A DNA stretch of 64,000 nucleotides, taken from assembly GCA_902500055.1 (NCBI GenBank), contig GCA_902500055.1_4131.1; one strand, written 5' to 3'. Made by a program: the position numbers and the translations under genes. Below the pieces are notes generated by a model that made no database searches, was not told where the DNA came from, and saw only the letters and a program-made list of their open reading frames with translations. Positions 2,072 to 52,741 of the stretch are shown here, one piece after another. The stretch's first letter is position 1. Each line of letters begins with the position of its first letter. Source of the stretch: Escherichia coli. GTDB taxonomy: Bacteria; Pseudomonadota; Gammaproteobacteria; Enterobacterales; Enterobacteriaceae.

Positions 2072-2658
2072 TGGATATTCCTTAATGGTTAATCATCCAT
2101 CTCTTCGAGATGTCTGTTCGCTTCTAATACTACGTATTCTACGCGAATGATTAATAACTGTCAAGGACTTTTAATATTGACGGGATTTGAGGAAGGGATT
2201 TTTCTTCCCCCCCCAAGGAGGGAAATTTGACGCTGATGGTATCAGAGCTATTGCATTGAAGATTACTCATAACGAGTGCGAAAGCGGGTCATCCTGTTTC
2301 TCTCTACTTCAGTTTCATATGACGGTCTACACTTTTAAACATAGTGTATCTTCATTAAGTATCTATGCAATCAAATACTTAATGTGAGTACTCAAATTTT
2401 GGACGCAACTTTCCTGTACAAAATTCGATAACTCTCCCTTAGATAATTCGTAAGGTGTTATCCTTATATGTCTATCAAGGAACCACCAGCTATCCTAACG
2501 TGGTTCTTTATACAGCCGCATTGCCGTGAGGGGTTCAAACTATGCCCACATCTAACGGGTTTCTTTTGCTGTTCGCACTGTCGGACTGCTCAACTGCCCT
2601 CTACGTTTTCGAGTGGATCAGGTACATGAATATCATGCCAACAGAATTGTACAAGATA

Positions 2659-2687
2659 ATTATATCACAAACTTTTACTTCATCCCA
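2659..2687 (-). promoter_or_regulatory. extended -10 promoter candidate
   Basis: Minus strand TGTGATATAAT with poor -35; points into the ORF-free island 2072..2650. Confidence 0.35.
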
Positions 2688-2688
2688 T

Positions 2689-2720
2689 AAAAAAAGGTTG
2701 GCATAAGCCAACCTTTTTTC
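2689..2720 (-). terminator. rho-independent terminator (bidirectional hairpin)
   Basis: ggttggc-ataa-gccaacc stem-loop flanked by A-run and T-run, directly after the sigma gene stop. Confidence 0.7.
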
Positions 2721-2721
2721 T

Positions 2722-3687
2722 TTAGAAATCTTCGTATTCGTACCCTTTTGCAAGTACTAACTTCTTAAGCTTTTGCATAGCTTCACTGTACTTTCGGTGT
2801 ATTGATGAACGGGATTTAACATATTTTCCATTATCATCAACAAAACCATTATCAGCAATCTCACGAAGCGTTTCAGGTTCATATTCACCTAGACCATGAA
2901 CACGCTGGATAATCTCACGTTCTTTAGTACTCAATTCGTTAGTCAGTTCATTGATAGCATAACGTAAAGGTGCACGGATACTATCAACATTGAGGTTAAA
3001 ATCAGAAGCAGGTGAATGAATAATGTCACCTAATGTACCATCTGTAACACCGTCTAATGGTGCATCCAGCGAAGTGTATTCGCTTTGAAATAACAAACAA
3101 TTATTAACATGCTGAATCTCAATCCCAGTACCCTCTGAGATTATTTCAGGAGTTGGGCGAACACCATGTTTACGCATATATTCCTGACAGAATCTTTTTA
3201 CTTTGATCTTATGAACACTCATATAACGTGGGAAGTGTACCATATAGTTAGCGTCAGAACTTTCGTTATAGACTGTCATGTAAATACTAGAAGAAGCATA
3301 GGTAATGAACTTAACATTCTTATTAAGATCAAAGGTTTTTAGTGCTCTCATGAACCCCTCAACACCATATGAAATCTTATCTTCAAATGGGATATAACAA
3401 GTACATTTACTTGCTACATCAATAATCAGTCCATAATTGTAACGAACTAACAGTTCAGTGTTTTTCTTTACATTGATACCAGCTTGAATATCACGAATTA
3501 GATCTTCATTGGAAACATTTGGTGGTCGCTTAAGTGTAATATTATATTTGAAACTGCTTTGTACTTTACCTTCATTTTCATCTTTATCTTCAACGAAATC
3601 TAAGGCTTCTAGTGTGTTGACTTCTTCATTAGCAAAACATTCATCCAGAACTTCTTCGGCAATTGTATTTAAATCAAGCTTTTTCAC
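2722..3687 (-). CDS. RNA polymerase sigma factor, sigma-70 family
   Basis: Region 2-like YGLIIDVASKCTCYIPFEDKISYGVEGFMRALKTFD and region 4-like EREIIQRVHGLGEYEPETLREIADNGFVDDNGKYVKSRSSIHRKYSEAMQKL. Confidence 0.8.
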   Translation of the reverse strand: MKKLDLNTIAEEVLDECFANEEVNTLEALDFVEDKDENEGKVQSSFKYNITLKRPPNVSNEDLIRDIQAGINVKKNTELLVRYNYGLIIDVASKCTCYIPFEDKISYGVEGFMRALKTFDLNKNVKFITYASSSIYMTVYNESSDANYMVHFPRYMSVHKIKVKRFCQEYMRKHGVRPTPEIISEGTGIEIQHVNNCLLFQSEYTSLDAPLDGVTDGTLGDIIHSPASDFNLNVDSIRAPLRYAINELTNELSTKEREIIQRVHGLGEYEPETLREIADNGFVDDNGKYVKSRSSIHRKYSEAMQKLKKLVLAKGYEYEDF

Positions 3688-3708
3688 TTACATCTCCTAA
3701 TGACGAAA

Positions 3709-4206
3709 TCAAAATCGATATACATTAATATTATCATCTGTGAAGCAATCATGGTTATGCACATCCATGAAAGTACTAAACACTTTATCATATAAAGTTG
3801 TATGTTCTTCATGAATAGCAGCATCTACCATGTATTCTCCACCACTTCCCATAAAGAAAGTGTAGTCTTCATGTAGATATTCAAGTTTTTTAATAAACTT
3901 TCCTTTAGTTAAAATCATATGAATAACATAATCTTTAGAAAGAAGCACACAATGGCAACTTAACTTTCTGTCAGGTATAACTGGTACTTTATTAATTAAC
4001 CAATCCAGTACTTTATCAATTTCACTTACTGCCCCACTAGCACTGAATAAACGGTCATGTACATATAAAGTTTTTTGATTAACAACTCCATATTGATATT
4101 TTGGTCTTAGTGGAAAAAAACCAAATAAGTTTCGTGGTATAGTTGACGTAACTCTAGAATCGGTAATCAATAAATTTAATCGTTTATCAATATAAACAGT
4201 TGTCAT
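3709..4206 (-). CDS. hslV: HslV-like Ntn-hydrolase peptidase (proteasome beta-type)
   Basis: N-terminal MTTVYID and motifs LFSASGAVSE and FMGSGGEYMVDAA align with HslV MTTIVSV, AGFAGGTADAF and IGSGGPYAQAAA. Confidence 0.55.
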   Translation of the reverse strand: MTTVYIDKRLNLLITDSRVTSTIPRNLFGFFPLRPKYQYGVVNQKTLYVHDRLFSASGAVSEIDKVLDWLINKVPVIPDRKLSCHCVLLSKDYVIHMILTKGKFIKKLEYLHEDYTFFMGSGGEYMVDAAIHEEHTTLYDKVFSTFMDVHNHDCFTDDNINVYRF

Positions 4207-4207
4207 A

Positions 4208-4627
4208 TTAAACCTTATCTAAGAATTTATCGTATATATAAAATTCTTTATCGGTGAATACATTAATTCTAGTATCGAATCTTTGCATCGTGTTCATATA
4301 CAATGAACTTTTTAAATAAAAATACAAAGCAACAAATTCTGATATATGCATATTCTTTTTATTGTTACATAAATTCTTTAGCATTTTGATGCTATCAAAT
4401 TCTTCTTTATCAAATCTGTACTGGTAAAAATTATATCTATTGAACTGGCACTCATAGATACGAAGTGCCATTATATCAATACATGCTTGCGATTTACAGT
4501 ACTTATTCAATACGTCATAATCACCCGTACATAATGCTACAAAGATTTTATGTGCAAGTGTAGCTTTTCCTTCAATCGTATGATAACCAAAGAACTTAAT
4601 GATTAAGTACTGAAGAAATCTAAACAT
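4208..4627 (-). CDS. hypothetical protein
   Basis: 139 aa ORF in tight minus-strand array. Confidence 0.5.
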   Translation of the reverse strand: MFRFLQYLIIKFFGYHTIEGKATLAHKIFVALCTGDYDVLNKYCKSQACIDIMALRIYECQFNRYNFYQYRFDKEEFDSIKMLKNLCNNKKNMHISEFVALYFYLKSSLYMNTMQRFDTRINVFTDKEFYIYDKFLDKV

Positions 4628-4632
4628 TTTAT

Positions 4633-4893
4633 TTAGAATTTCTCCGAAATTACAAGTGTATCATCATAATCATCAGCAATATCATGAAGAACTTTTAAGT
4701 TACTTTCACCAGAAACGCTTTTTACTTCGTTCAAAAGATAGTTTAGATCAACTTTAGTTACTTTTTCTGAATCAAACACACAGAAAGTTAATTCAGCGTT
4801 TGGACAGATCTTCTTCAGATTATCAGCAACCACTTGTTTGAAGTTGAAAGATGGGGAAGCAACTAGGTTAACTGCAACGAGAATAGATTTCAT
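4633..4893 (-). CDS. hypothetical protein
   Basis: 86 aa ORF. Confidence 0.5.
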   Translation of the reverse strand: MKSILVAVNLVASPSFNFKQVVADNLKKICPNAELTFCVFDSEKVTKVDLNYLLNEVKSVSGESNLKVLHDIADDYDDTLVISEKF

Positions 4894-4967
4894 AATGTTT
4901 TCCTTTCTAGCTGATAATTAAATTAGGAGCACATTGTACTCCATATTATTTGTTATGTCAAATACTT

Positions 4968-5219
4968 TTAGATACCAAGTGCAGTAGATAACTCTTTACG
5001 TTTGTTATATGAATCAGATTCAATCTTACTTTTCTTGTTGAAAAGGGATTCGATATCCTTATAGATTGCTTCGATAGATTTAGTTACTACCCATTCTGAT
5101 TCTTGAAGCATACCTTGGAGTCGTGCGTACTCAACTTTGATAGTACTGCGAAGTTCTTCACAAACTTCTTCATTCTTAATTAGTGCAGCACTAAGTTCTT
5201 TGACCTTATCGATGTTCAT
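4968..5219 (-). CDS. hypothetical protein
   Basis: 83 aa ORF, helical/charged composition. Confidence 0.45.
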   Translation of the reverse strand: MNIDKVKELSAALIKNEEVCEELRSTIKVEYARLQGMLQESEWVVTKSIEAIYKDIESLFNKKSKIESDSYNKRKELSTALGI

Positions 5220-29865: not shown

Positions 29866-30404
29866 TTACGATCCTTTGAAAAGTTCAGTTTAAAAGTTTT
29901 ACCAAATTCCATTGTAGCTTTACCCAGATTGTTAATATTTTCTTTCAACATTTCTTGCATCTTCCTAATACTTTCAATCCAGGCTTCTTCTTCGATACGA
30001 AGAATTGGTCGCAATCGTTCCTGAATATCGTTAAAACGTGTATTGAGTTCAACCAATGATTCATATGTGAAATCTTTCATATCGATAATAGTACTTCTTT
30101 GAAAGAATTCTTCTTCAGACAAATTACTTAAAATGATTTTATCACGACCAATAGATAATGTCAATTCATCATCTTTATTTTTTTTAATTACAATACTAAT
30201 AGGTGTTTTTAATGTAATGCAAATATCATGATTATTAAATGTTTCAGTTTGGTTTGACATTCTGAATTGAAGTTTCCCAGATAAAGCATGTACTGGTGAT
30301 GGTTGCTTTTTACCAGTAATAACATCTTCCCATGAATCGAGAATATTATTAATAATTTTAACATAAGGAATTGGCATATATGCACCTATGAAAAATCCAC
30401 GCAT
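29862..30404 (-). CDS. EExFQxST-motif paralog family protein
   Basis: C-proximal SEEEFFQRSTIIDMKDFTYESL. Confidence 0.55.
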   Translation of the reverse strand: MRGFFIGAYMPIPYVKIINNILDSWEDVITGKKQPSPVHALSGKLQFRMSNQTETFNNHDICITLKTPISIVIKKNKDDELTLSIGRDKIILSNLSEEEFFQRSTIIDMKDFTYESLVELNTRFNDIQERLRPILRIEEEAWIESIRKMQEMLKENINNLGKATMEFGKTFKLNFSKDRK

Positions 30405-30419
30405 TGCGTGGATTTGTAA

Positions 30420-30950
30420 TTATTCAAGTATAGTAATTTCAATTAAACGAATTTCGATAAACTCGTTTTCAGTTTCCCATGACGTGCCAAATTTCTTTTC
30501 AAGTTCAGATTTCACATCACTTTTAAATTTTCCCATAGTATTAGGAATAATTTGTTTGGTTAATTTGTCGTAACCACAATAAAACATAGGTTTCTCCCTT
30601 CGAGATATTAGCTGAACAAAATCTTTTGGATATGCAGGTATGTTATGCATCACTTCATGAATACACTCAGTACTTGAATCTTGTACTTTGTACATTACAT
30701 TAAGTTTACCTCTGAAATTTGCGGTCATATCAACAATAGTTCCTTTACCCGATTTAAGTAAAGTTCCATTCTTTGAATGAGAGCAATAAAATACCTCATC
30801 ACCAATATTAGGATAATACAAATTAAATTCTAATTCAGATTTTACAGCCAGACGTTTGAAACTTTCTGCACGTTTTATATAAGTTTGGTGTTTGTTTATG
30901 TTCAAAAGAATATATCTCGTAGTAAGTGTGATATAACTGGCATAGTCCAT
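30420..30950 (-). CDS. hypothetical protein
   Basis: 176 aa ORF; start overlaps the methyltransferase 3' end. Confidence 0.5.
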   Translation of the reverse strand: MDYASYITLTTRYILLNINKHQTYIKRAESFKRLAVKSELEFNLYYPNIGDEVFYCSHSKNGTLLKSGKGTIVDMTANFRGKLNVMYKVQDSSTECIHEVMHNIPAYPKDFVQLISRREKPMFYCGYDKLTKQIIPNTMGKFKSDVKSELEKKFGTSWETENEFIEIRLIEITILE

Positions 30951-31762
30951 CCATTCCCAAGCATTTTGTATGCTTGTGTTGAACTACTAACTTTGAAGTA
31001 GTTTACATCAATTCCTTGCAACATGCAACACTCTTGTACTGTTAAATGACGATAGTCCACATTTCGCTTACCATGTTCAATAAGGAAATCCCTATCGATA
31101 TCAGGTTCTTTGAAAACAATTTGTCTTCTTGATTTATTAAAGTACTGGTTACAATCACCACCTTTAAAATAGTTAGCATCTATACAGTACGAAGCGGTTC
31201 TGTCAGTGTACCAACCATCTTCAATAATATCTTGAAGTTTAGGTGCATTGGATAATGCAGGTGGTATAAAAAGCTTATCAGTACTGTACCAGTAATATCT
31301 CTGCCTGAAGTGAGGCGTATAATGCTGGGAGTTTATCAGTACTGGTGCAACACCAATCTCTTTGTTGAATATATCCAATGATTCTTTTTTCATTTTAACA
31401 TTCTCAAACAAAAAATTCAAATTGGGATTTAAACTTTTTATGTGATTGAAAATGTCCATCATTGTGTAAAATAACATACTACGTGGATCTTGTAATCCTA
31501 ATTGTTTCCCAGCCGTTGATAGTCCTTGACATGGACTACCCCCGATAAGTAAATCAATTTTATCCCACTCAATATCCCATTCTCTCCATTTAGTTACATC
31601 ACCCAATTGGGTGATATCAGGAAAGTTAGCTTGGGATTCAGCTATTGCGTACTTGTCAATTTCGGATGAATAATATTTTTCAACAGGGATGCCAGCATCT
31701 TTTAATGCCATGTATCCCACACTCATCCCATTAAAAAGAGATAGTACTCGGATAGGTTTCAT
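30902..31762 (-). CDS. DNA (cytosine-5)-methyltransferase
   Basis: Motif I LFNGMSVGY, motif IV GGSPCQGLS, motif VI ENV, C-terminal LTVQECCMLQG and YKMLGNGWTMPV. Confidence 0.8.
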   Translation of the reverse strand: MKPIRVLSLFNGMSVGYMALKDAGIPVEKYYSSEIDKYAIAESQANFPDITQLGDVTKWREWDIEWDKIDLLIGGSPCQGLSTAGKQLGLQDPRSMLFYTMMDIFNHIKSLNPNLNFLFENVKMKKESLDIFNKEIGVAPVLINSQHYTPHFRQRYYWYSTDKLFIPPALSNAPKLQDIIEDGWYTDRTASYCIDANYFKGGDCNQYFNKSRRQIVFKEPDIDRDFLIEHGKRNVDYRHLTVQECCMLQGIDVNYFKVSSSTQAYKMLGNGWTMPVISHLLRDIFF

Positions 31763-31814
31763 ATAAAATCCTTTTTATATTGTTAAGGTACTATAATATA
31801 TTATAGCATCTTAT

Positions 31815-32105
31815 TTAGAAATCTTCCAAACTTTTTTCATCACACCATCGTGATGTACAGATGATTGCAGATGCCATAATTGAAGCACTTGCACGTCCTC
31901 CACCGAGTAAGTACTGGCTAATTACACCAATCATATTGAACACTTTATCATACTCGGTTAGTTGTTCAAAACCTTTCTTCCAATGCTGATATTCTTCTTC
32001 TGTGACATTAAACTCACCATCAAGTTCCTTTAAAATCTTTTTAAGCACAGCACTATGTTCACTCATCATCATCTCCATATCGTTCGTCATAAAAATCATC
32101 ATCAC
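31815..32105 (-). CDS. hypothetical protein
   Basis: 96 aa ORF. Confidence 0.45.
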   Translation of the reverse strand: MMMIFMTNDMEMMMSEHSAVLKKILKELDGEFNVTEEEYQHWKKGFEQLTEYDKVFNMIGVISQYLLGGGRASASIMASAIICTSRWCDEKSLEDF

Positions 32106-32144
32106 GATCTAATGGTTCTTTTGGCTTTTCAGACATATATTTCC

Positions 32145-32405
32145 TCACATGGTAAAGGTATTATCACCATCCATATCTTCATCAGTTGCTTCAGCTAATG
32201 TCTTGATTGTAAGTAATCCACGCTTCACGTACAACATGAAGACCTTTTCATAATTACCAAACATAATCTCAGGTGACATGTAATTCTCTGTTACAATGAC
32301 GATTGGACGGCCCTGTGAAAGCATACGAAACATAGTACGATATTTGTCAAATGTACGAAATTCATCCATGTTCATCATGTGGCGTTTACGAACTACTTTA
32401 GTCAT
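32145..32405 (-). CDS. hypothetical protein
   Basis: 86 aa ORF. Confidence 0.45.
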   Translation of the reverse strand: MTKVVRKRHMMNMDEFRTFDKYRTMFRMLSQGRPIVIVTENYMSPEIMFGNYEKVFMLYVKRGLLTIKTLAEATDEDMDGDNTFTM

Positions 32406-32419
32406 CTTATTACCTTTAG

Positions 32420-32860
32420 TTAATTGAACTCTACTTCTGGGTAATGATTATAGAACATCTCACGAACTGCGTCAAGATGTTCTTGAAATTGTTTTATATC
32501 TTCTAATGATGGTGCATCAATAACAGTACTAAGTTGAAACAACGATTCTTCTGTGTTATATAGTGACATATCAAATGAGTTATTGTTGTCATCAGTTATG
32601 ATATTATCACAAATTTCGTAAGTGTCAATACAAACATCATCAAGTGTTGTATTATCATATACAGTGTATACGAATACAAAAATAAAAGAAGAATGTTCTT
32701 TACCATAACGCGGTGGGTCATATGTCACATAGCATTTGTGGTCAAATGTATCGAGTTCCATAGACACCACCCCAGCTTCACGATATTCATTAGTTTCACT
32801 GGTAAGATCCGGTATTGATGTTATCGAAAGTAAGTGGAGAAATTTACTTGGATTTAGCAT
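32420..32860 (-). CDS. EExFQxST-motif paralog family protein
   Basis: C-proximal TEESLFQLSTVIDAPSLEDI. Confidence 0.55.
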   Translation of the reverse strand: MLNPSKFLHLLSITSIPDLTSETNEYREAGVVSMELDTFDHKCYVTYDPPRYGKEHSSFIFVFVYTVYDNTTLDDVCIDTYEICDNIITDDNNNSFDMSLYNTEESLFQLSTVIDAPSLEDIKQFQEHLDAVREMFYNHYPEVEFN

Positions 32861-33315
32861 TTCACCACCATTGGATTTTGCGACTGTATATTAAAAAGGG
32901 ATAATACAAAAGTACTCAATTTTTCGAAACAATCTACTAATACATTTAACTCATCATAACTAACACCAATTTCACGAATAAGCGATTGTTGAAAGAATCC
33001 TTCTTCGGTTAACGTTAAACTACTAACCTCAGTTATGTTATAATAACTGTGGGATGTTGTGGTTGATATTAGTTGTATTGCAATCGTATCTGATGTTGTG
33101 TTGTACAGATATAAATATTTTGTTTTTCTTTCCAATGGATCTATACATGAAAGATCGATCATGTCATAGGTTTTTCCAATAAAAATATTACAATCATCTG
33201 ACAATTCACAACAAATGCGTATATGTTCTTTCGGGTCATGAACACGTTGTGTGTCAAATTCACATGACATTGCAATTTCAAAATGATTTTTTATTTCGTC
33301 AACATTCATCTGCAC
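32854..33315 (-). CDS. EExFQxST-motif paralog family protein
   Basis: C-proximal TEEGFFQQSLIREIGVSYDEL. Confidence 0.55.
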   Translation of the reverse strand: MQMNVDEIKNHFEIAMSCEFDTQRVHDPKEHIRICCELSDDCNIFIGKTYDMIDLSCIDPLERKTKYLYLYNTTSDTIAIQLISTTTSHSYYNITEVSSLTLTEEGFFQQSLIREIGVSYDELNVLVDCFEKLSTFVLSLFNIQSQNPMVVKC

Positions 33316-46807: not shown

Positions 46808-47452
46808 TTATTTGTAATATTTACCTAGTACTGAATAAATTTTCAGTCTAAGTTCTGTCCAGTTTTCGATATATTCAAAACCACTATGATTCTTATACAT
46901 AGTATTATGAGAACATCCCATCATAACTGATGGAATACCAAGACCCATAGCAGTTTCAATATTATTGATATAATCATCAATCATTAGTTTTACATCATAT
47001 CGTGTTTGTAAATCCTCTAATGCTTCTTTCTTTGATTCATTCATTTCTATGATAATAATCTCATCAAAGCAGTTTTCACCAAATTCACGCATTAGATTTA
47101 CATTTCGTAAAACTTCACCATAGCCTTTTTTACCACATTTTGTGAGTACTACGAATTTTTCTTTATGAAAACGATCACGTAGCTCTTGTACAATATCAAC
47201 TGTATTTGGTTCGACTGGCTTTAACAACCCAAACAAATATGATTGTTGGTTGAACTGTTCAAGAATCTTTTTAACTTCAGGTTGAGGAACACCCAACCAG
47301 TCTGATAAATCATATTCTAATGGGTATGGTGTTGATGGTGTGATATTATAAGTTTGTTTTACAAACTCAGAAAGCATACCCATATGGTCCAATAGAACTT
47401 CATCACAATCAAAAACTATACAACGTGGTTTCATTACATGTTCCCCGAACAA
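46808..47452 (-). CDS. HAD-superfamily hydrolase (possible nucleotidase)
   Basis: N-terminal FDCDEV DxD motif typical of HAD phosphatases. Confidence 0.5.
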   Translation of the reverse strand: MFGEHVMKPRCIVFDCDEVLLDHMGMLSEFVKQTYNITPSTPYPLEYDLSDWLGVPQPEVKKILEQFNQQSYLFGLLKPVEPNTVDIVQELRDRFHKEKFVVLTKCGKKGYGEVLRNVNLMREFGENCFDEIIIIEMNESKKEALEDLQTRYDVKLMIDDYINNIETAMGLGIPSVMMGCSHNTMYKNHSGFEYIENWTELRLKIYSVLGKYYK

Positions 47453-48423
47453 ATTAGGTCAATCTCACACAGTAAAGCACTAAGATTCATTTCACGGTCT
47501 GATACTGTTGCTTGCTTAACAACTGCATCACGAATTTTAACTTTAATCTTCATCAGTGTGATTTCATCAGTACTGAACATTTCAGCATTACGATACAGAT
47601 AAGAAAAGAATGCATCCATCTCATCATCAGGGATATTTTGTACAATTTGTTCACGCATTTGGCGAATGTTGCCTGCCTTTAATGCTTCAACAATTGCAGT
47701 ACGATACCCTGCTGAATTTTCAATACTATCTTCAAGTTTTACTAGCTTACCATCAACAACTGAACTTTGCAATACGTTTAGTGTTTTACGGAAATCAGGA
47801 TAGGAAGCATTGATGTACTTTTGAACTTGTTCAACACTATCATCACTACTCAAATCAACACCTTCTGCTAGAAGAATATTATAAATTCGAGTCATGAATT
47901 GTTCCATATCATGCTTTTCGATTGTAATAACTTGAACACGAGAAATGATAGGTTTTTGAATTTTATGTGGTTCGTTACTTGTTAAAATAAAGCGAGCATT
48001 TTCATGATAGTCTTCCATTACACGTTTCAAACTACCTTGTGCTTTGTGGTTCATCTGCTCCATTTCTTCAAGAACAAAAATACGATATCTACCAAAACAT
48101 GATAGCTTTGCTGCGGCATCGATTTTGTCACGAACAGCATCAATGCCTTCATCGGACATGTTAAGCGTGGTCACATCACTTGGATCAAGGTGTCCATTTT
48201 GAACTAGTCCATTAATTAGTACTTTGATCGCAGATGTTTTACCAGTTCCTGCTGGGCCAAAAAACCCAATATGTGGAATGTCACCAGTCTTAATCCATTC
48301 TTCCATTTTCTGGCGTAGTGCATCGTTTTTTGATACATAATCTTCCATTGATTGTGGGCGATATTTTTCAGTCCATAGTGTGGTCATTTGTATTTCCTTA
48401 TGTGTACGTGTTATAGAATCCAA
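47434..48423 (-). CDS. clamp loader ATPase subunit (gp44/RFC-like)
   Basis: WTEKYRPQSMEDY, Walker A GPAGTGKT, and overall RFC small-subunit layout. Confidence 0.8.
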   Translation of the reverse strand: MDSITRTHKEIQMTTLWTEKYRPQSMEDYVSKNDALRQKMEEWIKTGDIPHIGFFGPAGTGKTSAIKVLINGLVQNGHLDPSDVTTLNMSDEGIDAVRDKIDAAAKLSCFGRYRIFVLEEMEQMNHKAQGSLKRVMEDYHENARFILTSNEPHKIQKPIISRVQVITIEKHDMEQFMTRIYNILLAEGVDLSSDDSVEQVQKYINASYPDFRKTLNVLQSSVVDGKLVKLEDSIENSAGYRTAIVEALKAGNIRQMREQIVQNIPDDEMDAFFSYLYRNAEMFSTDEITLMKIKVKIRDAVVKQATVSDREMNLSALLCEIDLICSGNM

Positions 48424-48683: not shown

Positions 48684-48736
48684 AATCTGTCCAAATAAAA
48701 AGCCCAGATATTCATCCGAGCTTTAATTATATTTTA

Positions 48737-49063
48737 TTAACGACCAAAGGTTAGCATTTTAGTTCGTGGATCTTCATCTGAAACTAAACTAACTGCGGCT
48801 GGATAATCAACCAAGTTTAATTCAATACCATCAACTTCAATAGTTCTTGACCATCGACCATGATCAATTAAAATCCATTGACCTTCTTTAATATCAGTAA
48901 TGTCTTCGCCTACAGAATAAACTTTTGCCCAGCGAGAACGAATACCTCTAATTTTACCGTCATCGTTTGTTAAAACGATACCACCTGCTGTTTTGCGTTC
49001 ACCATGTTCCAGTTCAGTTACCAGTACTTTACCTTTACATGCAGTCATTACTTTATTAGTCAT
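48737..49063 (-). CDS. groES: co-chaperonin GroES/gp31-like
   Basis: ERKTAGGIVLT matches the GroES ETKSAGGIVLT signature; about 100 aa. Confidence 0.7.
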   Translation of the reverse strand: MTNKVMTACKGKVLVTELEHGERKTAGGIVLTNDDGKIRGIRSRWAKVYSVGEDITDIKEGQWILIDHGRWSRTIEVDGIELNLVDYPAAVSLVSDEDPRTKMLTFGR

Positions 49064-49071
49064 TTAATATA

Positions 49072-49416
49072 TTACTCCTGATCTTTGGTTCTAGCTCGAC
49101 GTGGTGCTTTCTTCTCTTCAGAAACCTCAGCTTCTTGTTCTTCGGGCTTAACTTCAAAACTCTCATCATCCCATACTTCATCCGTACCATGTTCAGTACT
49201 ATGAAGTTGATGTTCAGGGATATAATCAGGAATTTGCATTTCTCGTTCTTTTTCTTGAATCAACTCTTCACGAGTTTTAATAATTGTTCCACCGGAACCG
49301 ATTTTATCACCACGTGCGTTTAGATTAGCATTACCCAATGCTACCTGATGTTGATTTTGGTACTTGAGCATATCCATGTCAATTGTTGTACCACGATAAG
49401 TTGTATGTTTAGACAT
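49072..49416 (-). CDS. hypothetical protein
   Basis: 114 aa charged ORF downstream of a promoter. Confidence 0.5.
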   Translation of the reverse strand: MSKHTTYRGTTIDMDMLKYQNQHQVALGNANLNARGDKIGSGGTIIKTREELIQEKEREMQIPDYIPEHQLHSTEHGTDEVWDDESFEVKPEEQEAEVSEEKKAPRRARTKDQE

Positions 49417-49461
49417 ATCAAAATCCTTTTATTGTATGTGTGATATAAGCCTACAATAAAC

Positions 49462-49491
49462 ATTATATCACATGTTTTTCTACCATTTCAA
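49462..49491 (-). promoter_or_regulatory. sigma-70-type promoter with extended -10
   Basis: Minus strand TTGAAA-N18-TGTGATATAAT. Confidence 0.5.
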
Positions 49492-49998
49492 AAATTCGTT
49501 AACATCAAGTTCGTACTTCAATGAATCTACCATATGTAGTCCAATCAAAAACAAACAGTATGATGCAACAGAGCTTCCACGACCTAGACCCCAAAAGATC
49601 TCATTTTCTTCCATATAATCAACAAGCCATATCATACATCTTAGTAGCTTTGTCATATTATAATATTCATATAAATCAAGTTCATACTCAACACGTTTTC
49701 GTGCTTCATCGGATGTGCATTTTTGTAAGAAAAAGTCACGCAGATTTATATTGTCGTATACTGGATCATATCGCCACAGTTCATGATTTTTATCATGCTC
49801 AATTGTATAATCCAGCATACGTTGTTCTAAGCCAAATTTTTTACAGTTATCATTGAATTTCAACCTTTCAGGTTCATCAATTTCCTGCAATTGTAAGTAC
49901 TGGATATCTGCACCGCAATTGATTGCATAAACAACTGCGTTAAGATTACATTTCACATCACCATTGGGACTTATAAATCTGTTTCCTTGTACTTTCAT
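49480..49998 (-). CDS. hypothetical protein with DnaE-like C-terminal motif
   Basis: C-terminus WGLGRGSSVASYCLFLIGLHMVDSLKYELDVNEFL resembles the Pol III alpha GPGRGSGAGSLVAYAL...FERFL segment. Confidence 0.5.
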   Translation of the reverse strand: MKVQGNRFISPNGDVKCNLNAVVYAINCGADIQYLQLQEIDEPERLKFNDNCKKFGLEQRMLDYTIEHDKNHELWRYDPVYDNINLRDFFLQKCTSDEARKRVEYELDLYEYYNMTKLLRCMIWLVDYMEENEIFWGLGRGSSVASYCLFLIGLHMVDSLKYELDVNEFLKW

Positions 49999-50269
49999 TT
50001 TTCTTCTTCTGGGCCTCTTCGTTGTCAGTTAGATATGAATCCATATCGAAGATACATGGGTCTTCTTCGTCATAAACAGTTTTTTCTTTTTGTCCTTGGC
50101 GAAGTTCTAGTTCAGCATAACATTGATTTAAGACAGTTTGCATATTACCAATAATCATGTCGCTTAGGCCAGCAGCACGAGCAGAAGTTAAACGCATAGA
50201 CTGTTCATTAATTTTTAACTGTAGTTCTTTTTCCGTCATTCCAGACGGGTCAAAAAACGGATTAAACAT
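49958..50269 (-). CDS. hypothetical protein
   Basis: 103 aa ORF. Confidence 0.45.
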   Translation of the reverse strand: MFNPFFDPSGMTEKELQLKINEQSMRLTSARAAGLSDMIIGNMQTVLNQCYAELELRQGQKEKTVYDEEDPCIFDMDSYLTDNEEAQKKKNESTRKQIYKSQW

Positions 50270-52710: not shown

Positions 52711-52741
52711 TAAAGGACAAGGAAGACCCATAAGGTCTTCC
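52711..52741 (-). terminator. hairpin terminator candidate
   Basis: ggaagacc-cataa-ggtcttcc 8-bp stem followed by a T-rich run on the minus strand. Confidence 0.45.

What the first reader, a model, noticed from the sequence alone, without database searches (positions are those of the whole stretch)
49480..49998. 172-aa ORF ending in a DNA polymerase III alpha (DnaE)-like segment
The last 60 or so residues resemble the DnaE region containing GPGRGSGAGSLVAYAL...DPLEFDLLFERFL, and the ORF stops immediately afterwards. This could be a gene fragment, a split gene or a domestic domain with a new role.
Basis: partly seen in the sequence, partly recalled or inferred. Interest (0 to 1): 0.55.

Follow-up and report, generated by a model that had tools for sequence, protein, structure and literature searches.

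The report
Split mini DNA polymerase III, N-half
The 172-residue ORF is a real, strongly conserved gene of a Rak2-like giant phage that encodes the nucleotide-binding half of a miniature, two-piece relative of bacterial DNA polymerase III alpha; this split enzyme was described by sequence analysis in 2021, and I found no experimental test of it.

Summary
Observation confirmed. The ORF lies at 49480-49998 on the minus strand. It matches Pfam DNA_pol3_alpha above the curated cut-off and aligns to E. coli DnaE residues 322-393, including the GxGRGS nucleotide-binding motif. It stops 7 residues before the position of the catalytic Asp401.

It is not a decaying fragment. dN/dS is 0.06-0.08, and hundreds of homologues are 152-196 aa long and end at the same ..EFLK position.

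No fused or adjacent arrangement appeared in 160 diverse viral contigs. PHP, thumb, clamp-binding and OB domains are absent, and the phage also has a T4-like family B polymerase.

Iyer et al. 2021 (Viruses 13:63) already described this split minimal Pol III alpha, so it is already known. Additions here: the invariant split point, conserved neighbouring gene cassettes, and presence in a 141-kb non-jumbo phage. Function is still untested.

The parts
49480..49998 (-). Gene for the N-terminal (nucleotide-binding) subunit of the split minimal Pol III alpha-like enzyme; 172 aa; identical to PBECO4 gp449 / 121Q gp56
   Evidence: ORF; Pfam PF07733 above cut-off; PHROG 11127 full length, E=3e-87; 100% protein identity to PBECO4, 121Q and others; dN/dS 0.06-0.08 against RaK2 and GAP32
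49483..49701 (-). Residues 100-172: segment homologous to the rigid N-terminal part of the DnaE large palm subdomain (E. coli 322-394)
   Evidence: Ungapped hhalign alignment, probability 95.8%, E=6.7e-9; hmmsearch against PDB aligns the same segment
49570..49590 (-). Codons for G137-L-G-R-G-S-S143, the GS motif of the Pol-beta-like nucleotidyltransferase fold (equivalent to E. coli G359...R362-G363-S364)
   Evidence: The sequence reads GGT CTA GGT CGT GGA AGC TCT on the minus strand; G137, G139, R140, G141, S142 and S143 are invariant in 22 homologues down to 31% identity; role of R362/G363/S364 in dNTP binding from 10.64898/2026.06.29.735100
49480..49482 (-). TAG stop codon that defines the conserved split point (after ..NEFLKW, about E. 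coli DnaE residue 393/394)
   Evidence: In 80 of 80 IMG/VR homologues the ORF ends 0-9 aa after the end of the family profile, and in 66 of 80 exactly at it; in nearly all of the 150 best cluster representatives the profile ends at the protein C-terminus
49702..49998 (-). Residues 1-99: N-terminal region with no sequence match to DnaE. It is well conserved only among Rak2-like phages and more variable elsewhere. The model shows two short strands plus helices
   Evidence: Alignment A1; tblastn hits in PA5oct-like phages cover only residues 68-171; AlphaFold block-mean pLDDT 64 for residues 1-10 and 76-97 for residues 11-100
49072..49416 (-). Conserved downstream neighbour, 114 aa, PHROG 14844, function unknown (motif ..G...D...L...NE...AVGN..VNARGD..G.GG). 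Possibly linked functionally, but not shown
   Evidence: Immediately downstream on the same strand in 78 of 80 diverse viral contigs; no Pfam, PDB or DnaE similarity
48737..49063 (-). Cpn10 / T4 gp31-like co-chaperonin gene, the next member of the conserved block
   Evidence: Pfam Cpn10 E=2.2e-5; PHROG 931; present after the 114-aa gene in 76 of 80 contigs
47434..48423 (-). gp44/RFC-like clamp-loader large subunit, the end of the conserved block (PBECO4 annotates the start at 48387)
   Evidence: PHROG 168 E=1e-78, Pfam DNA_pol3_delta2/AAA; found 0.6-6.8 kb downstream of the N-half in 54 of 80 contigs, of which only 56 have at least 2.5 kb of downstream sequence; same arrangement in Paride, RaK2 and GAP32

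Best explanation
The ORF encodes one of two subunits of a miniature C-family (Pol III alpha/DnaE-like) polymerase that Rak2-like and related T4-type phages carry in addition to their T4-like family B replicase. This subunit (172 aa) supplies the first strand and helices of the Pol-beta-like nucleotidyltransferase palm, with the GxGRGSS motif that holds the sugar and the beta/gamma phosphates of the incoming nucleotide. The partner (212 aa, PBECO4 gp488, about 30 kb away and outside the window) starts almost exactly where this ORF stops. The partner supplies the DxDxD strand and the KxD strand that bind the two metal ions. It also supplies the RPG loop that touches the templating base, and the helix-loop-helix with the stacking aromatic residue and the histidine steric gate that excludes ribonucleotides. 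The two polypeptides must associate without a covalent link to complete one palm sheet and one active site. The break falls at the boundary, seen in E. coli alpha, between the rigid part of the palm (271-393) and the part that moves on DNA binding. The most likely product is a small, template-dependent, dNTP-selective DNA polymerase of low intrinsic processivity, used for repair, recombination-dependent or gap-filling synthesis beside the main replicase. Shown: homology, the motifs, the conserved split, co-occurrence of the halves, purifying selection, and placement among replication genes. Inferred: heterodimer formation, polymerase activity and the biological role.
Against: No experiment exists. 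Heterodimer formation was not modelled, because the structure tool predicts single chains only. The enzyme lacks the PHP domain, the thumb, most of the fingers, the clamp-binding motif and the OB and tau-binding domains. A six-frame scan of the whole PBECO4 genome with a DnaE profile found no other piece. E. coli R390, which lies within 4 A of dGTP and whose R390A mutant is 27-fold less efficient, is a nearly invariant Glu (E168) here. The index-finger basic residues R709/K714/K715 and the YQEQ motif have no visible counterpart, because only 36 residues span what takes 115 in E. coli. The C-half link to DnaE is weak by sequence alone: hhalign 52% with E=1.5e-4, and Pfam finger domain below cut-off in 11 of 23 members. 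The DIDIDF-to-D401/D403 equivalence rests on motif and order, not on the hhalign path. The two genes are never adjacent (0 of 160 contigs within 10 kb), which is unusual for obligate partners. The phage already has a complete PolB with its own exonuclease domain.
Confidence: 0.75

Rival explanations
1. The two pieces form a nucleotidyltransferase that is not a templated DNA polymerase. Examples are a terminal transferase or end-repair enzyme, a primer- or RNA-extending enzyme, or a maker of a nucleotide signal, evolved from a DnaE palm.
For: Thumb, clamp-binding, OB and PHP domains are all missing. R390 is replaced by Glu and the index-finger basic cluster is missing. The phage already has a full PolB replicase and a separate DnaQ-like exonuclease. 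The palm belongs to the Pol-beta-like superfamily, which includes many non-replicative transferases (established knowledge; Iyer 2021).
Against: The features specific to templated, dNTP-selective synthesis are invariant. These are the RPG loop that contacts the templating nucleotide and the histidine steric gate with the preceding aromatic residues. Both genes sit in replication or recombination gene blocks, not with RNA-repair or defence-related genes.
Confidence: 0.15
2. The 172-aa protein works on its own or with its conserved neighbours (the 114-aa protein, the clamp loader) as a non-catalytic structural or regulatory factor. The resemblance to the C-half's missing part would then be only historical.
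For: The N-half is never linked to the C-half, but it is almost always followed by the same 114-aa gene and lies near the clamp loader.
Against: The residues that stay invariant down to 31% identity are exactly the catalytic-site GS motif (G137, G139, R140, G141, S142, S143). These have no obvious use without the metal-binding strand. Both halves co-occur in every complete genome examined.
Confidence: 0.06
3. It is a pseudogene, a truncated remnant of a captured dnaE, or an artefact of a frameshift or sequencing error at the stop.
For: Length of 172 aa against about 1160 aa; earlier genome papers called it 'truncated'.
Against: dN/dS is 0.06-0.08. The protein is identical in more than 20 independent phage isolates. 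There are 485 cluster representatives at E<=1e-30, and all 150 listed are 152-196 aa. The stop position is the same in 80 of 80 contigs. A different conserved gene, not DnaE sequence in another frame, follows the stop.
Confidence: 0.01
4. The two halves are joined after translation by a split intein, as in cyanobacterial DnaE.
For: Naturally split DnaE genes joined by trans-splicing inteins exist in cyanobacteria (literature listed).
Against: No intein or Hint domain was hit in either protein. The N-half ends 0-2 residues after the DnaE-homologous EFLK. The C-half has only about 0-15 residues before DIDID. There is no room for intein fragments and no Cys/Ser/Thr nucleophile pattern at the junction.
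Confidence: 0.01

Closest known systems
Split minimal DNA polymerase III alpha of 'group 2.2' jumbo phages (Iyer, Anantharaman, Krishnan, Burroughs, Aravind 2021, Viruses 13:63; PMC7824862)
   Same: This is that system. It has an N-terminal NTP-binding unit and a C-terminal Mg2+/template-binding unit encoded by distant genes, in phages that also have a family B polymerase. The window ORF is the N-terminal unit.
   Different: Nothing essential differs. Points added here are listed below. I could not check whether the paper's figures or supplements already contain them. (1) The break is fixed to within a few residues across hundreds of clusters and falls at E. coli 393/394. (2) No fused or adjacent form appeared in 160 contigs. 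(3) Both genes have conserved neighbour blocks. (4) E. coli R390 is replaced by Glu and the index-finger basic cluster is lost. (5) Both halves occur in a 141-kb phage below the jumbo size limit.
Bacterial replicative Pol III alpha (DnaE) and PolC
   Different: About 384 aa in two chains against 1100-1450 aa in one chain. It has no PHP, thumb, ring or little fingers, clamp-binding motif, OB or tau-binding domain. R390 and the R709/K714/K715 equivalents are changed or missing. It is not the only polymerase of its genome.
Cyanobacterial split DnaE with a split intein (e.g. Synechocystis/Nostoc DnaE-N and DnaE-C)
   Same: The dnaE coding sequence is divided between two distant genes.
   Different: There the break is at a different position in the protein (my recollection, not checked here). 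Each part carries an intein fragment, and protein splicing restores a full-length alpha. Here there is no intein, the break lies inside the palm, and the product must stay in two chains.
Full-length phage DnaE (e.g. Bacillus phage FADO, Streptomyces Likavirus; Iyer's group 3.2)
   Same: Phage-encoded C-family polymerase. These are the nearest full-length sequences in the phage collection (28-32% identity over about 70 aa).
   Different: They are 1120-1160 aa single chains and are described as host-like enzymes with an N-terminal PHP domain that serve as the defining replication polymerase of those phages (Iyer 2021).
Multi-piece RNA polymerase subunits of phiKZ-like (group 1) jumbo phages
   Same: Core nucleic-acid polymerase modules are encoded as several separate polypeptides that assemble without a covalent link.
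   Different: Unrelated fold (double-psi beta-barrel), and those enzymes have been characterised experimentally (e.g. PMC7598289, listed).

Membership tests
C-family DNA polymerase catalytic core (Pol III alpha / DnaE / PolC) | Sequence match to the palm model (Pfam PF07733) above the curated threshold | tested here: met
   37.9 bits against a cut-off of 23.9, E=1.9e-9, residues 92-171; hhalign 95.8%
C-family DNA polymerase catalytic core (Pol III alpha / DnaE / PolC) | GS motif with preceding Arg (E. coli R362-G363-S364) that binds the incoming dNTP | tested here: met
   R140-G141-S142 are invariant in 22 homologues and aligned ungapped to R362-S364
C-family DNA polymerase catalytic core (Pol III alpha / DnaE / PolC) | Three catalytic aspartates (E. 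coli D401, D403, D555) in the same polypeptide | tested here: not met
   They are absent from this ORF, which stops at the equivalent of residue 393/394. They are present and invariant in the separate C-half protein (D16, D18, D82)
C-family DNA polymerase catalytic core (Pol III alpha / DnaE / PolC) | Template-nucleotide contact loop R639-P640-G641, and helix-loop-helix with stacking Tyr754 and steric-gate His760 | tested here: met
   In the partner protein, R149, P150 and H190 are invariant, F186 is at least 90% conserved, and an aromatic residue occupies position 185 in most members. The mapping comes; residue roles come
C-family DNA polymerase catalytic core (Pol III alpha / DnaE / PolC) | Basic residues around the triphosphate (R390; R709, K714, K715) and the YQEQ motif | tested here: not met
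   R390 aligns to the nearly invariant E168. The region between RPG and FKKxH is 36 aa against 115 aa and has no RRAMGKKK or YQEQ counterpart. Invariant K152 and K187 might substitute, but this was not tested
C-family DNA polymerase catalytic core (Pol III alpha / DnaE / PolC) | Predicted fold superposes on solved Pol III alpha / PolC | tested here: met
C-family DNA polymerase catalytic core (Pol III alpha / DnaE / PolC) | PHP domain, thumb, clamp-binding motif, OB and tau-binding domains of a replicative alpha subunit | tested here: not met
   Neither protein has room for them. A six-frame scan of the whole PBECO4 genome with a DnaE profile found only the N-half (E=2e-9), and nothing else scored below E=1
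C-family DNA polymerase catalytic core (Pol III alpha / DnaE / PolC) | Template-directed DNA synthesis | not testable with these tools
   This needs biochemistry. No experimental report was found in four literature searches
Split minimal Pol III alpha of group 2.2 jumbo phages (Iyer et al. 2021) | Two standalone proteins, an N-terminal NTP-binding unit and a C-terminal metal/template-binding unit, encoded by distant genes | tested here: met
   In PBECO4 the N-half is at 239915-240433 and the C-half at 270767-271405. The halves are 11-182 kb apart in nine other phages
Split minimal Pol III alpha of group 2.2 jumbo phages (Iyer et al. 2021) | Co-occurrence with a T4-like family B polymerase and the T4-type replication core (UvsW-type helicase, gp32-like SSB, RFC-like clamp loader) | tested here: met
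   PBECO4 gp512 has the PolB exonuclease and polymerase domains. Clamp loader, SSB, UvsX/UvsY, helicase, primase and DnaB-like genes are annotated
Split-intein DnaE (cyanobacterial type) | Intein (Hint) fragments flanking the break, with a nucleophile at the junction | tested here: not met
   No Hint or intein family hit. The termini leave 0-2 and about 0-15 residues outside the DnaE-homologous sequence

The most novel reading that the evidence does not exclude
The two-chain mini-enzyme may not be a redundant back-up polymerase. It could be a distinct kind of replisome component whose activity is gated by assembly of its halves, possibly with the invariably adjacent 114-aa 'NARGD' protein as a third subunit or clamp adaptor. 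Alternatively, as Iyer et al. suggested, the split minimal form may preserve the ancestral state of the C-family polymerase before the cellular enzyme fused and gained domains. Neither reading is excluded. I found no fused minimal form that would mark the split as derived, and no known function for the conserved neighbour.
Probability: 0.12. Interest if true: 0.7.

Novelty: already known. Interest (0 to 1): 0.3.

Why it matters
If the pair is active, it would be by far the smallest C-family DNA polymerase (about 384 aa in two chains) and a natural case of a polymerase active site shared between two polypeptides. That would help define the minimal requirements of the Pol III fold. It would bear on the debate about the origin of bacterial replicases. 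It would also help explain how large T4-type phages divide labour between a family B replicase and a second polymerase. In practical terms, many genome records label this ORF 'DNA polymerase III alpha subunit', 'DNA polymerase' or 'hypothetical', and usually label its partner 'hypothetical' or even 'membrane protein'. Correct paired annotation would be an improvement. As a discovery it adds little, because the central point was published in 2021.

Tried and rejected
1. Sequencing error, frameshift or pseudogene: rejected by dN/dS and by the universally conserved stop.

2. Intein trans-splicing: rejected, because there are no intein domains and no spare residues at the junction.

3. Other DnaE pieces (PHP, OB and so on) elsewhere in the genome: a six-frame scan of the whole PBECO4 genome and of the window with a DnaE profile and three single DnaE queries found only this ORF. 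The C-half itself is invisible to that scan. I found it through its PHROG-based 'DNA polymerase' annotation in the PBECO4 RefSeq record and then through its motifs, profile-profile comparison and fold.

4. Fused or adjacent versions: none among the 120 and 150 best N-half homologues, the 120 best C-half homologues, or 160 IMG/VR loci with 10-kb flanks. The searches list only the best hits, so rare fused forms are not excluded.

5. The conserved 114-aa neighbour as a further DnaE fragment, for example the thumb: rejected, hhalign probability 0.1%. It has no Pfam or PDB relative.

6. Plain HMMER profile of either half against PDB sequences: only marginal E-values (0.018 for the N-half, 1.3 for the C-half), so profile-profile and fold comparisons were needed.

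7. The hhalign path places the C-half DIDID on E. coli 481-485. I judged this a by-product of the missing thumb (a gap of about 80 residues) and used the motif, order and abutment argument instead.

8. Promoter and terminator scan: counts do not exceed shuffled sequence (32 promoter-like sites against a shuffle mean of 30.2; 4 terminator-like sites against 2.0, sd 1.3), so nothing is claimed.

9. Expression timing in the PA5oct transcriptome paper: the main text says nothing specific about these genes.

10. Literature after 2021: four searches found no experimental work on the split enzyme.

Full report
What is there. Window 49480-49998 holds a 172-codon ORF on the minus strand, with ATG at 49998 and TAG at 49480-49482. 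Pfam matches residues 92-171 to positions 16-95 of PF07733, the Pol III alpha palm ('NTPase') domain. The match has E=1.9e-9 and 37.9 bits against a curated cut-off of 23.9. PHROG 11127, a 171-position family labelled 'DNA polymerase', matches end to end with E=3e-87.

Where the window comes from. The surrounding 4 kb is 100% identical to Salmonella phage SD-1_S14. It is 99.7-99.9% identical to about 15 further coliphage and Salmonella-phage isolates, including PBECO4, phAPEC6, SP27 and G17, and 93.5% identical to 121Q. These are Rak2-like jumbo myoviruses of about 350 kb, genus Asteriusvirus. Window position x corresponds to PBECO4 position 190435+x, and the ORF is PBECO4 gp449. The protein is 100% identical in PBECO4 and 121Q. 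It is 77-83% identical in phages of four other named genera, Alcyoneusvirus, Mimasvirus, Eneladusvirus and the Salmonella/Klebsiella group. It is recognisable at 31-55% identity in PA5oct-like, XacN1, Atu_ph07, RsoM2USA and CM1 phages.

Exact relation to DnaE. I built a family alignment (A1, 22 sequences down to 31% identity). I compared it with an alignment of E. coli DnaE and two full-length phage DnaE proteins (A3). hhalign gives 95.8% probability and E=6.7e-9. The alignment of residues 100-172 to E. coli 322-394 has no gaps. G137, G139, R140, G141, S142 and S143 are invariant. R140-G141-S142 correspond to E. coli R362-G363-S364.

Role of that motif. In a 2026 cryo-EM preprint of the E. coli ternary complex, this 'GS motif' lies on palm strand P-beta-1. 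It contacts the deoxyribose and the beta/gamma phosphates of the incoming dGTP, and R362A is inactive (10.64898/2026.06.29.735100).

Where the ORF ends. It ends with NEFLKW, equivalent to E. coli E389-R390-F391-L392-N393-P394. That is 7 residues before Asp401, the first catalytic aspartate, on strand P-beta-2. The same preprint describes palm residues 271-393 as a rigid unit. The following part, which carries Asp401 and Asp403, moves on DNA binding. The phage break therefore coincides with a natural mechanical boundary of the palm. That last point is my inference.

The AlphaFold model of the ORF has mean pLDDT 87. The 14 best Foldseek matches in the PDB are all DnaE, Pol III alpha or PolC. The scores are modest, with best E=0.028, probability 0.99 and TM 0.45.

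Not a fragment. dN/dS against the RaK2 and GAP32 orthologues is 0.058 and 0.083, with synonymous sites near saturation. In the 5.8-billion-protein collection, 176 clusters match. All 120 listed are 95-187 aa long, and most are 171-187 aa. In the exhaustive profile search, 485 representatives of 50%-identity clusters reach E<=1e-30. All 150 listed are 152-196 aa long, and in nearly all the profile's last position falls at the protein's C-terminus. More than 575 IMG/VR contigs encode a relative. In 80 sampled contigs the ORF ends 0-9 residues after the profile end, and in 66 of 80 it ends exactly there. The start, including a 41-nt overlap with the upstream gene, is the same in RaK2 and GAP32.

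The other half. The PBECO4 annotation lists a second small 'DNA polymerase', gp488, at 270767-271405. It is 212 aa long and lies 30 kb from gp449, beyond the end of the window. Its sequence begins MQDSTDSKHYRKARTDIDIDF. This is the P-D-x-D-x-D-F strand that should follow the point where the window ORF stops.

The C-half family has 785 clusters. All 120 listed are 157-220 aa, nearly all 190-220, and none has a Pfam assignment. Invariant residues are D16, D18, D20, H48, G51, K80, D82, R149, P150, K152, K187, H190 and Y194. hhalign against DnaE is weak, with probability 52% and E=1.5e-4, but it is informative. It places H48..G51 on E. coli H511..G514, K80/D82 on K553/D555, and R149/P150 on R639/P640. 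The FKKPHAYAY segment matches F756-N-K-S-H760-S-A-A-Y764 by motif and order.

These residues have known roles in E. coli. D401, D403 and D555 bind the metals. K553A is inactive. R639, P640 and G641 lie within 4 A of the templating nucleotide. Y754 stacks on the incoming base, and H760 is the steric gate against ribonucleotides. Taken together, the two proteins contain a complete C-family active site and nothing is lost at the junction. N-half W172 corresponds to about residue 394, and C-half residues 9-15 correspond to about 394-400.

What is missing. Together the halves have about 384 residues, against 1160 in E. coli alpha. There is no PHP domain. The thumb (E. coli 433-510) is replaced by a short hairpin. 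Only 36 residues span what takes 115 in E. coli between the RPG loop and the helix-loop-helix. As a result the YQEQ motif and the basic cluster R709/K714/K715 have no visible counterpart. Everything after about residue 785 is absent. R390 is a nearly invariant Glu (E168) in the phage family. In E. coli, R390A lowers catalytic efficiency 27-fold.

I fetched the whole PBECO4 genome and scanned all 3780 six-frame ORFs with the DnaE profile and with three single DnaE sequences. Only gp449 is significant, at E=2e-9. No separate PHP, OB or clamp-binding piece was detected.

The phage also has a 1001-aa T4 gp43-like family B polymerase with its own exonuclease domain (gp512) and a DnaQ-like exonuclease (gp495). 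The mini-enzyme is therefore an accessory enzyme, not the only polymerase.

Linkage and context. The two genes occur together in every complete genome I checked, and they are always apart:
- PBECO4: 30 kb apart.
- RaK2 and GAP32: 33 kb apart.
- PA5oct and Paride: 43 kb apart.
- CM1: 14 kb apart.
- Atu_ph07: 182 kb apart.
- SCTP-2, Phosso and XaC1: both present and far apart.
- Alishewanella phage Slickus01 (141 kb, below the jumbo limit): 11 kb apart. There the N-half was found only with the family HMM, at E=9e-17.

In 80 IMG/VR loci around N-half genes and 80 loci around C-half genes, each with up to 10 kb of flank, the other half never appears. No ORF is long enough to be a fusion.

Each half has its own conserved neighbourhood. 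The N-half is followed directly by a 114-aa protein of unknown function in 78 of 80 loci. Next comes a Cpn10/gp31-like gene in 76 of 80 loci, and then the gp44-like clamp loader in 54 of 80 loci. Only 56 of those loci have enough downstream sequence to show the clamp loader. The upstream genes vary. The C-half lies in a block that runs UvsX, UvsY, UvsW-like helicase, three unknown genes, the C-half, an antisense unknown gene, primase and DnaB-like helicase. Named phages show the same order. Part of this is inherited synteny. Still, both genes are embedded among replication and recombination genes.

Mechanism proposed. Shown by the data: homology of both pieces to adjoining parts of the DnaE catalytic core, conservation of the catalytic, template-contact and sugar-selecting residues, a fixed break point, co-occurrence, purifying selection and a replication-gene context. 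Inferred: the two chains associate to complete one palm sheet, with the GS-motif strand from one chain lying beside the DxD strand from the other. The complex would then catalyse template-directed dNTP addition with low intrinsic processivity. It would serve in repair, recombination-dependent or gap-filling synthesis alongside the family B replicase.

I put 0.75 on 'subunit of a two-chain Pol III-like nucleotidyltransferase'. Within that, I put roughly 0.55-0.6 on 'templated DNA polymerase'. The main rival, at 0.15, is a non-replicative transferase. It draws on the lost basic residues and the lost DNA-gripping domains. The invariant RPG loop and histidine gate argue against it.

Comparison with what is known. 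Earlier genome papers noticed a 'truncated' 172-aa Pol III alpha in CBB and Atu_ph07. Iyer et al. [quoted passage not shown] They proposed that it cooperates with the family B enzyme and may model an ancestral state. My analysis reached the same structure before I read that paper and agrees with it. Four literature searches found no later experimental work.

The system differs from cyanobacterial split DnaE, which is rejoined by a split intein. There is no intein here.

Verdict. The 'split gene' reading is correct, and the 'fragment or error' reading is refuted. The feature is biologically striking, but it is already in the literature, so it ranks as already known with modest residual interest because the biochemistry is untested.

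Noticed in passing
window 49072-49416 (-): A 114-aa protein (PHROG 14844, unknown function) lies directly downstream of the N-half gene in 78 of 80 diverse viral contigs. It has an invariant N-terminal motif (..G...D...L...NE...AVGN..VNARGD..G.GG.I) followed by a variable, low-complexity tail. Several uncultured (IMG/VR) members end in ..GIDAALDGLE. It has no Pfam, PDB or DnaE similarity. It could be a partner of the mini-polymerase or of the clamp loader.
   Followed up: partly
window 48737-49063 (-); PBECO4 286924-287259: A Cpn10/T4 gp31-like co-chaperonin gene is the third member of the conserved N-half block (76 of 80 contigs). PBECO4 carries a second GroES-like gene, gp507. Why a head-folding co-chaperonin is locked between polymerase and clamp-loader genes is unexplained.
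   Followed up: partly
window 49958-49998 (-): The upstream 103-aa ORF (49958-50269, PHROG 15348) overlaps the start of the N-half gene by 41 nt. The same 41-nt overlap is annotated in RaK2 and GAP32, which suggests translational coupling. Yet this upstream gene is found in only 3 of 80 distant contigs.
   Followed up: partly
window 49462-49491 (-) and 49417-49479: A near-consensus sigma-70-like site (TTGAAA, 18 nt, TG-TATAAT; 11 of 12) overlaps the last codons of the N-half gene. A 9-bp inverted repeat (GTGATATAA...TTATATCAC) sits in the 63-nt spacer before the next gene. Promoter-like sites are not enriched over shuffles, so the significance is unknown.
   Followed up: no
L002 (PBECO4) 29992-33312; 80 IMG/VR loci L096-L175: The C-half gene has its own conserved unknown neighbours. 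gp490 (236 aa, PHROG 11058) lies immediately upstream in most of the 76 of 80 loci that carry it. gp487 (117 aa, PHROG 11637) lies on the opposite strand in 76 of 80 loci and abuts or overlaps the 3' end of the C-half gene in PBECO4, Paride, Atu_ph07, Slickus01 and about a quarter of the IMG/VR loci. gp491 and gp492 are present in 49-60 of 80 loci. One of these might be the clamp or helicase loader that BLAST fails to find in these phages.
   Followed up: partly
L011-L013 (Alishewanella phage vB_AspM_Slickus01, OQ508957.1): 79796-80308 and 68346-68957: A 141-kb phage, below the 200-kb jumbo limit, carries both halves of the mini Pol III, 11 kb apart. Both are annotated as hypothetical. Its family B polymerase is annotated as two adjacent ORFs (2558-4261 and 4261-5196).
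   Followed up: partly
window 46808-47452 (-): The gene after the clamp loader (214 aa, overlapping its end) starts with a DxDxV motif (FDCDEVLLD) typical of HAD phosphatases. It is called a 5'-nucleotidase in one record and 'similar to T4 gp30.2' in GAP32. It recurs downstream of the N-half in 13 of 80 contigs.
   Followed up: no
window 52721-52741 (-) and 48699-48724 (-): Two terminator-like hairpins with T-rich tails bracket the stretch that contains the 806-aa virion protein gene, the 103-aa gene, the N-half, the 114-aa gene and the gp31-like gene. This may be a transcription unit that mixes structural and replication genes.
   Followed up: no
L179 (PBECO4 157841-170100, outside the window): There is a run of ten tandem paralogous genes annotated 'regulator of chromosome condensation' (RCC1-like), all on the plus strand in a genome that is otherwise almost entirely minus-strand.
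   Followed up: no
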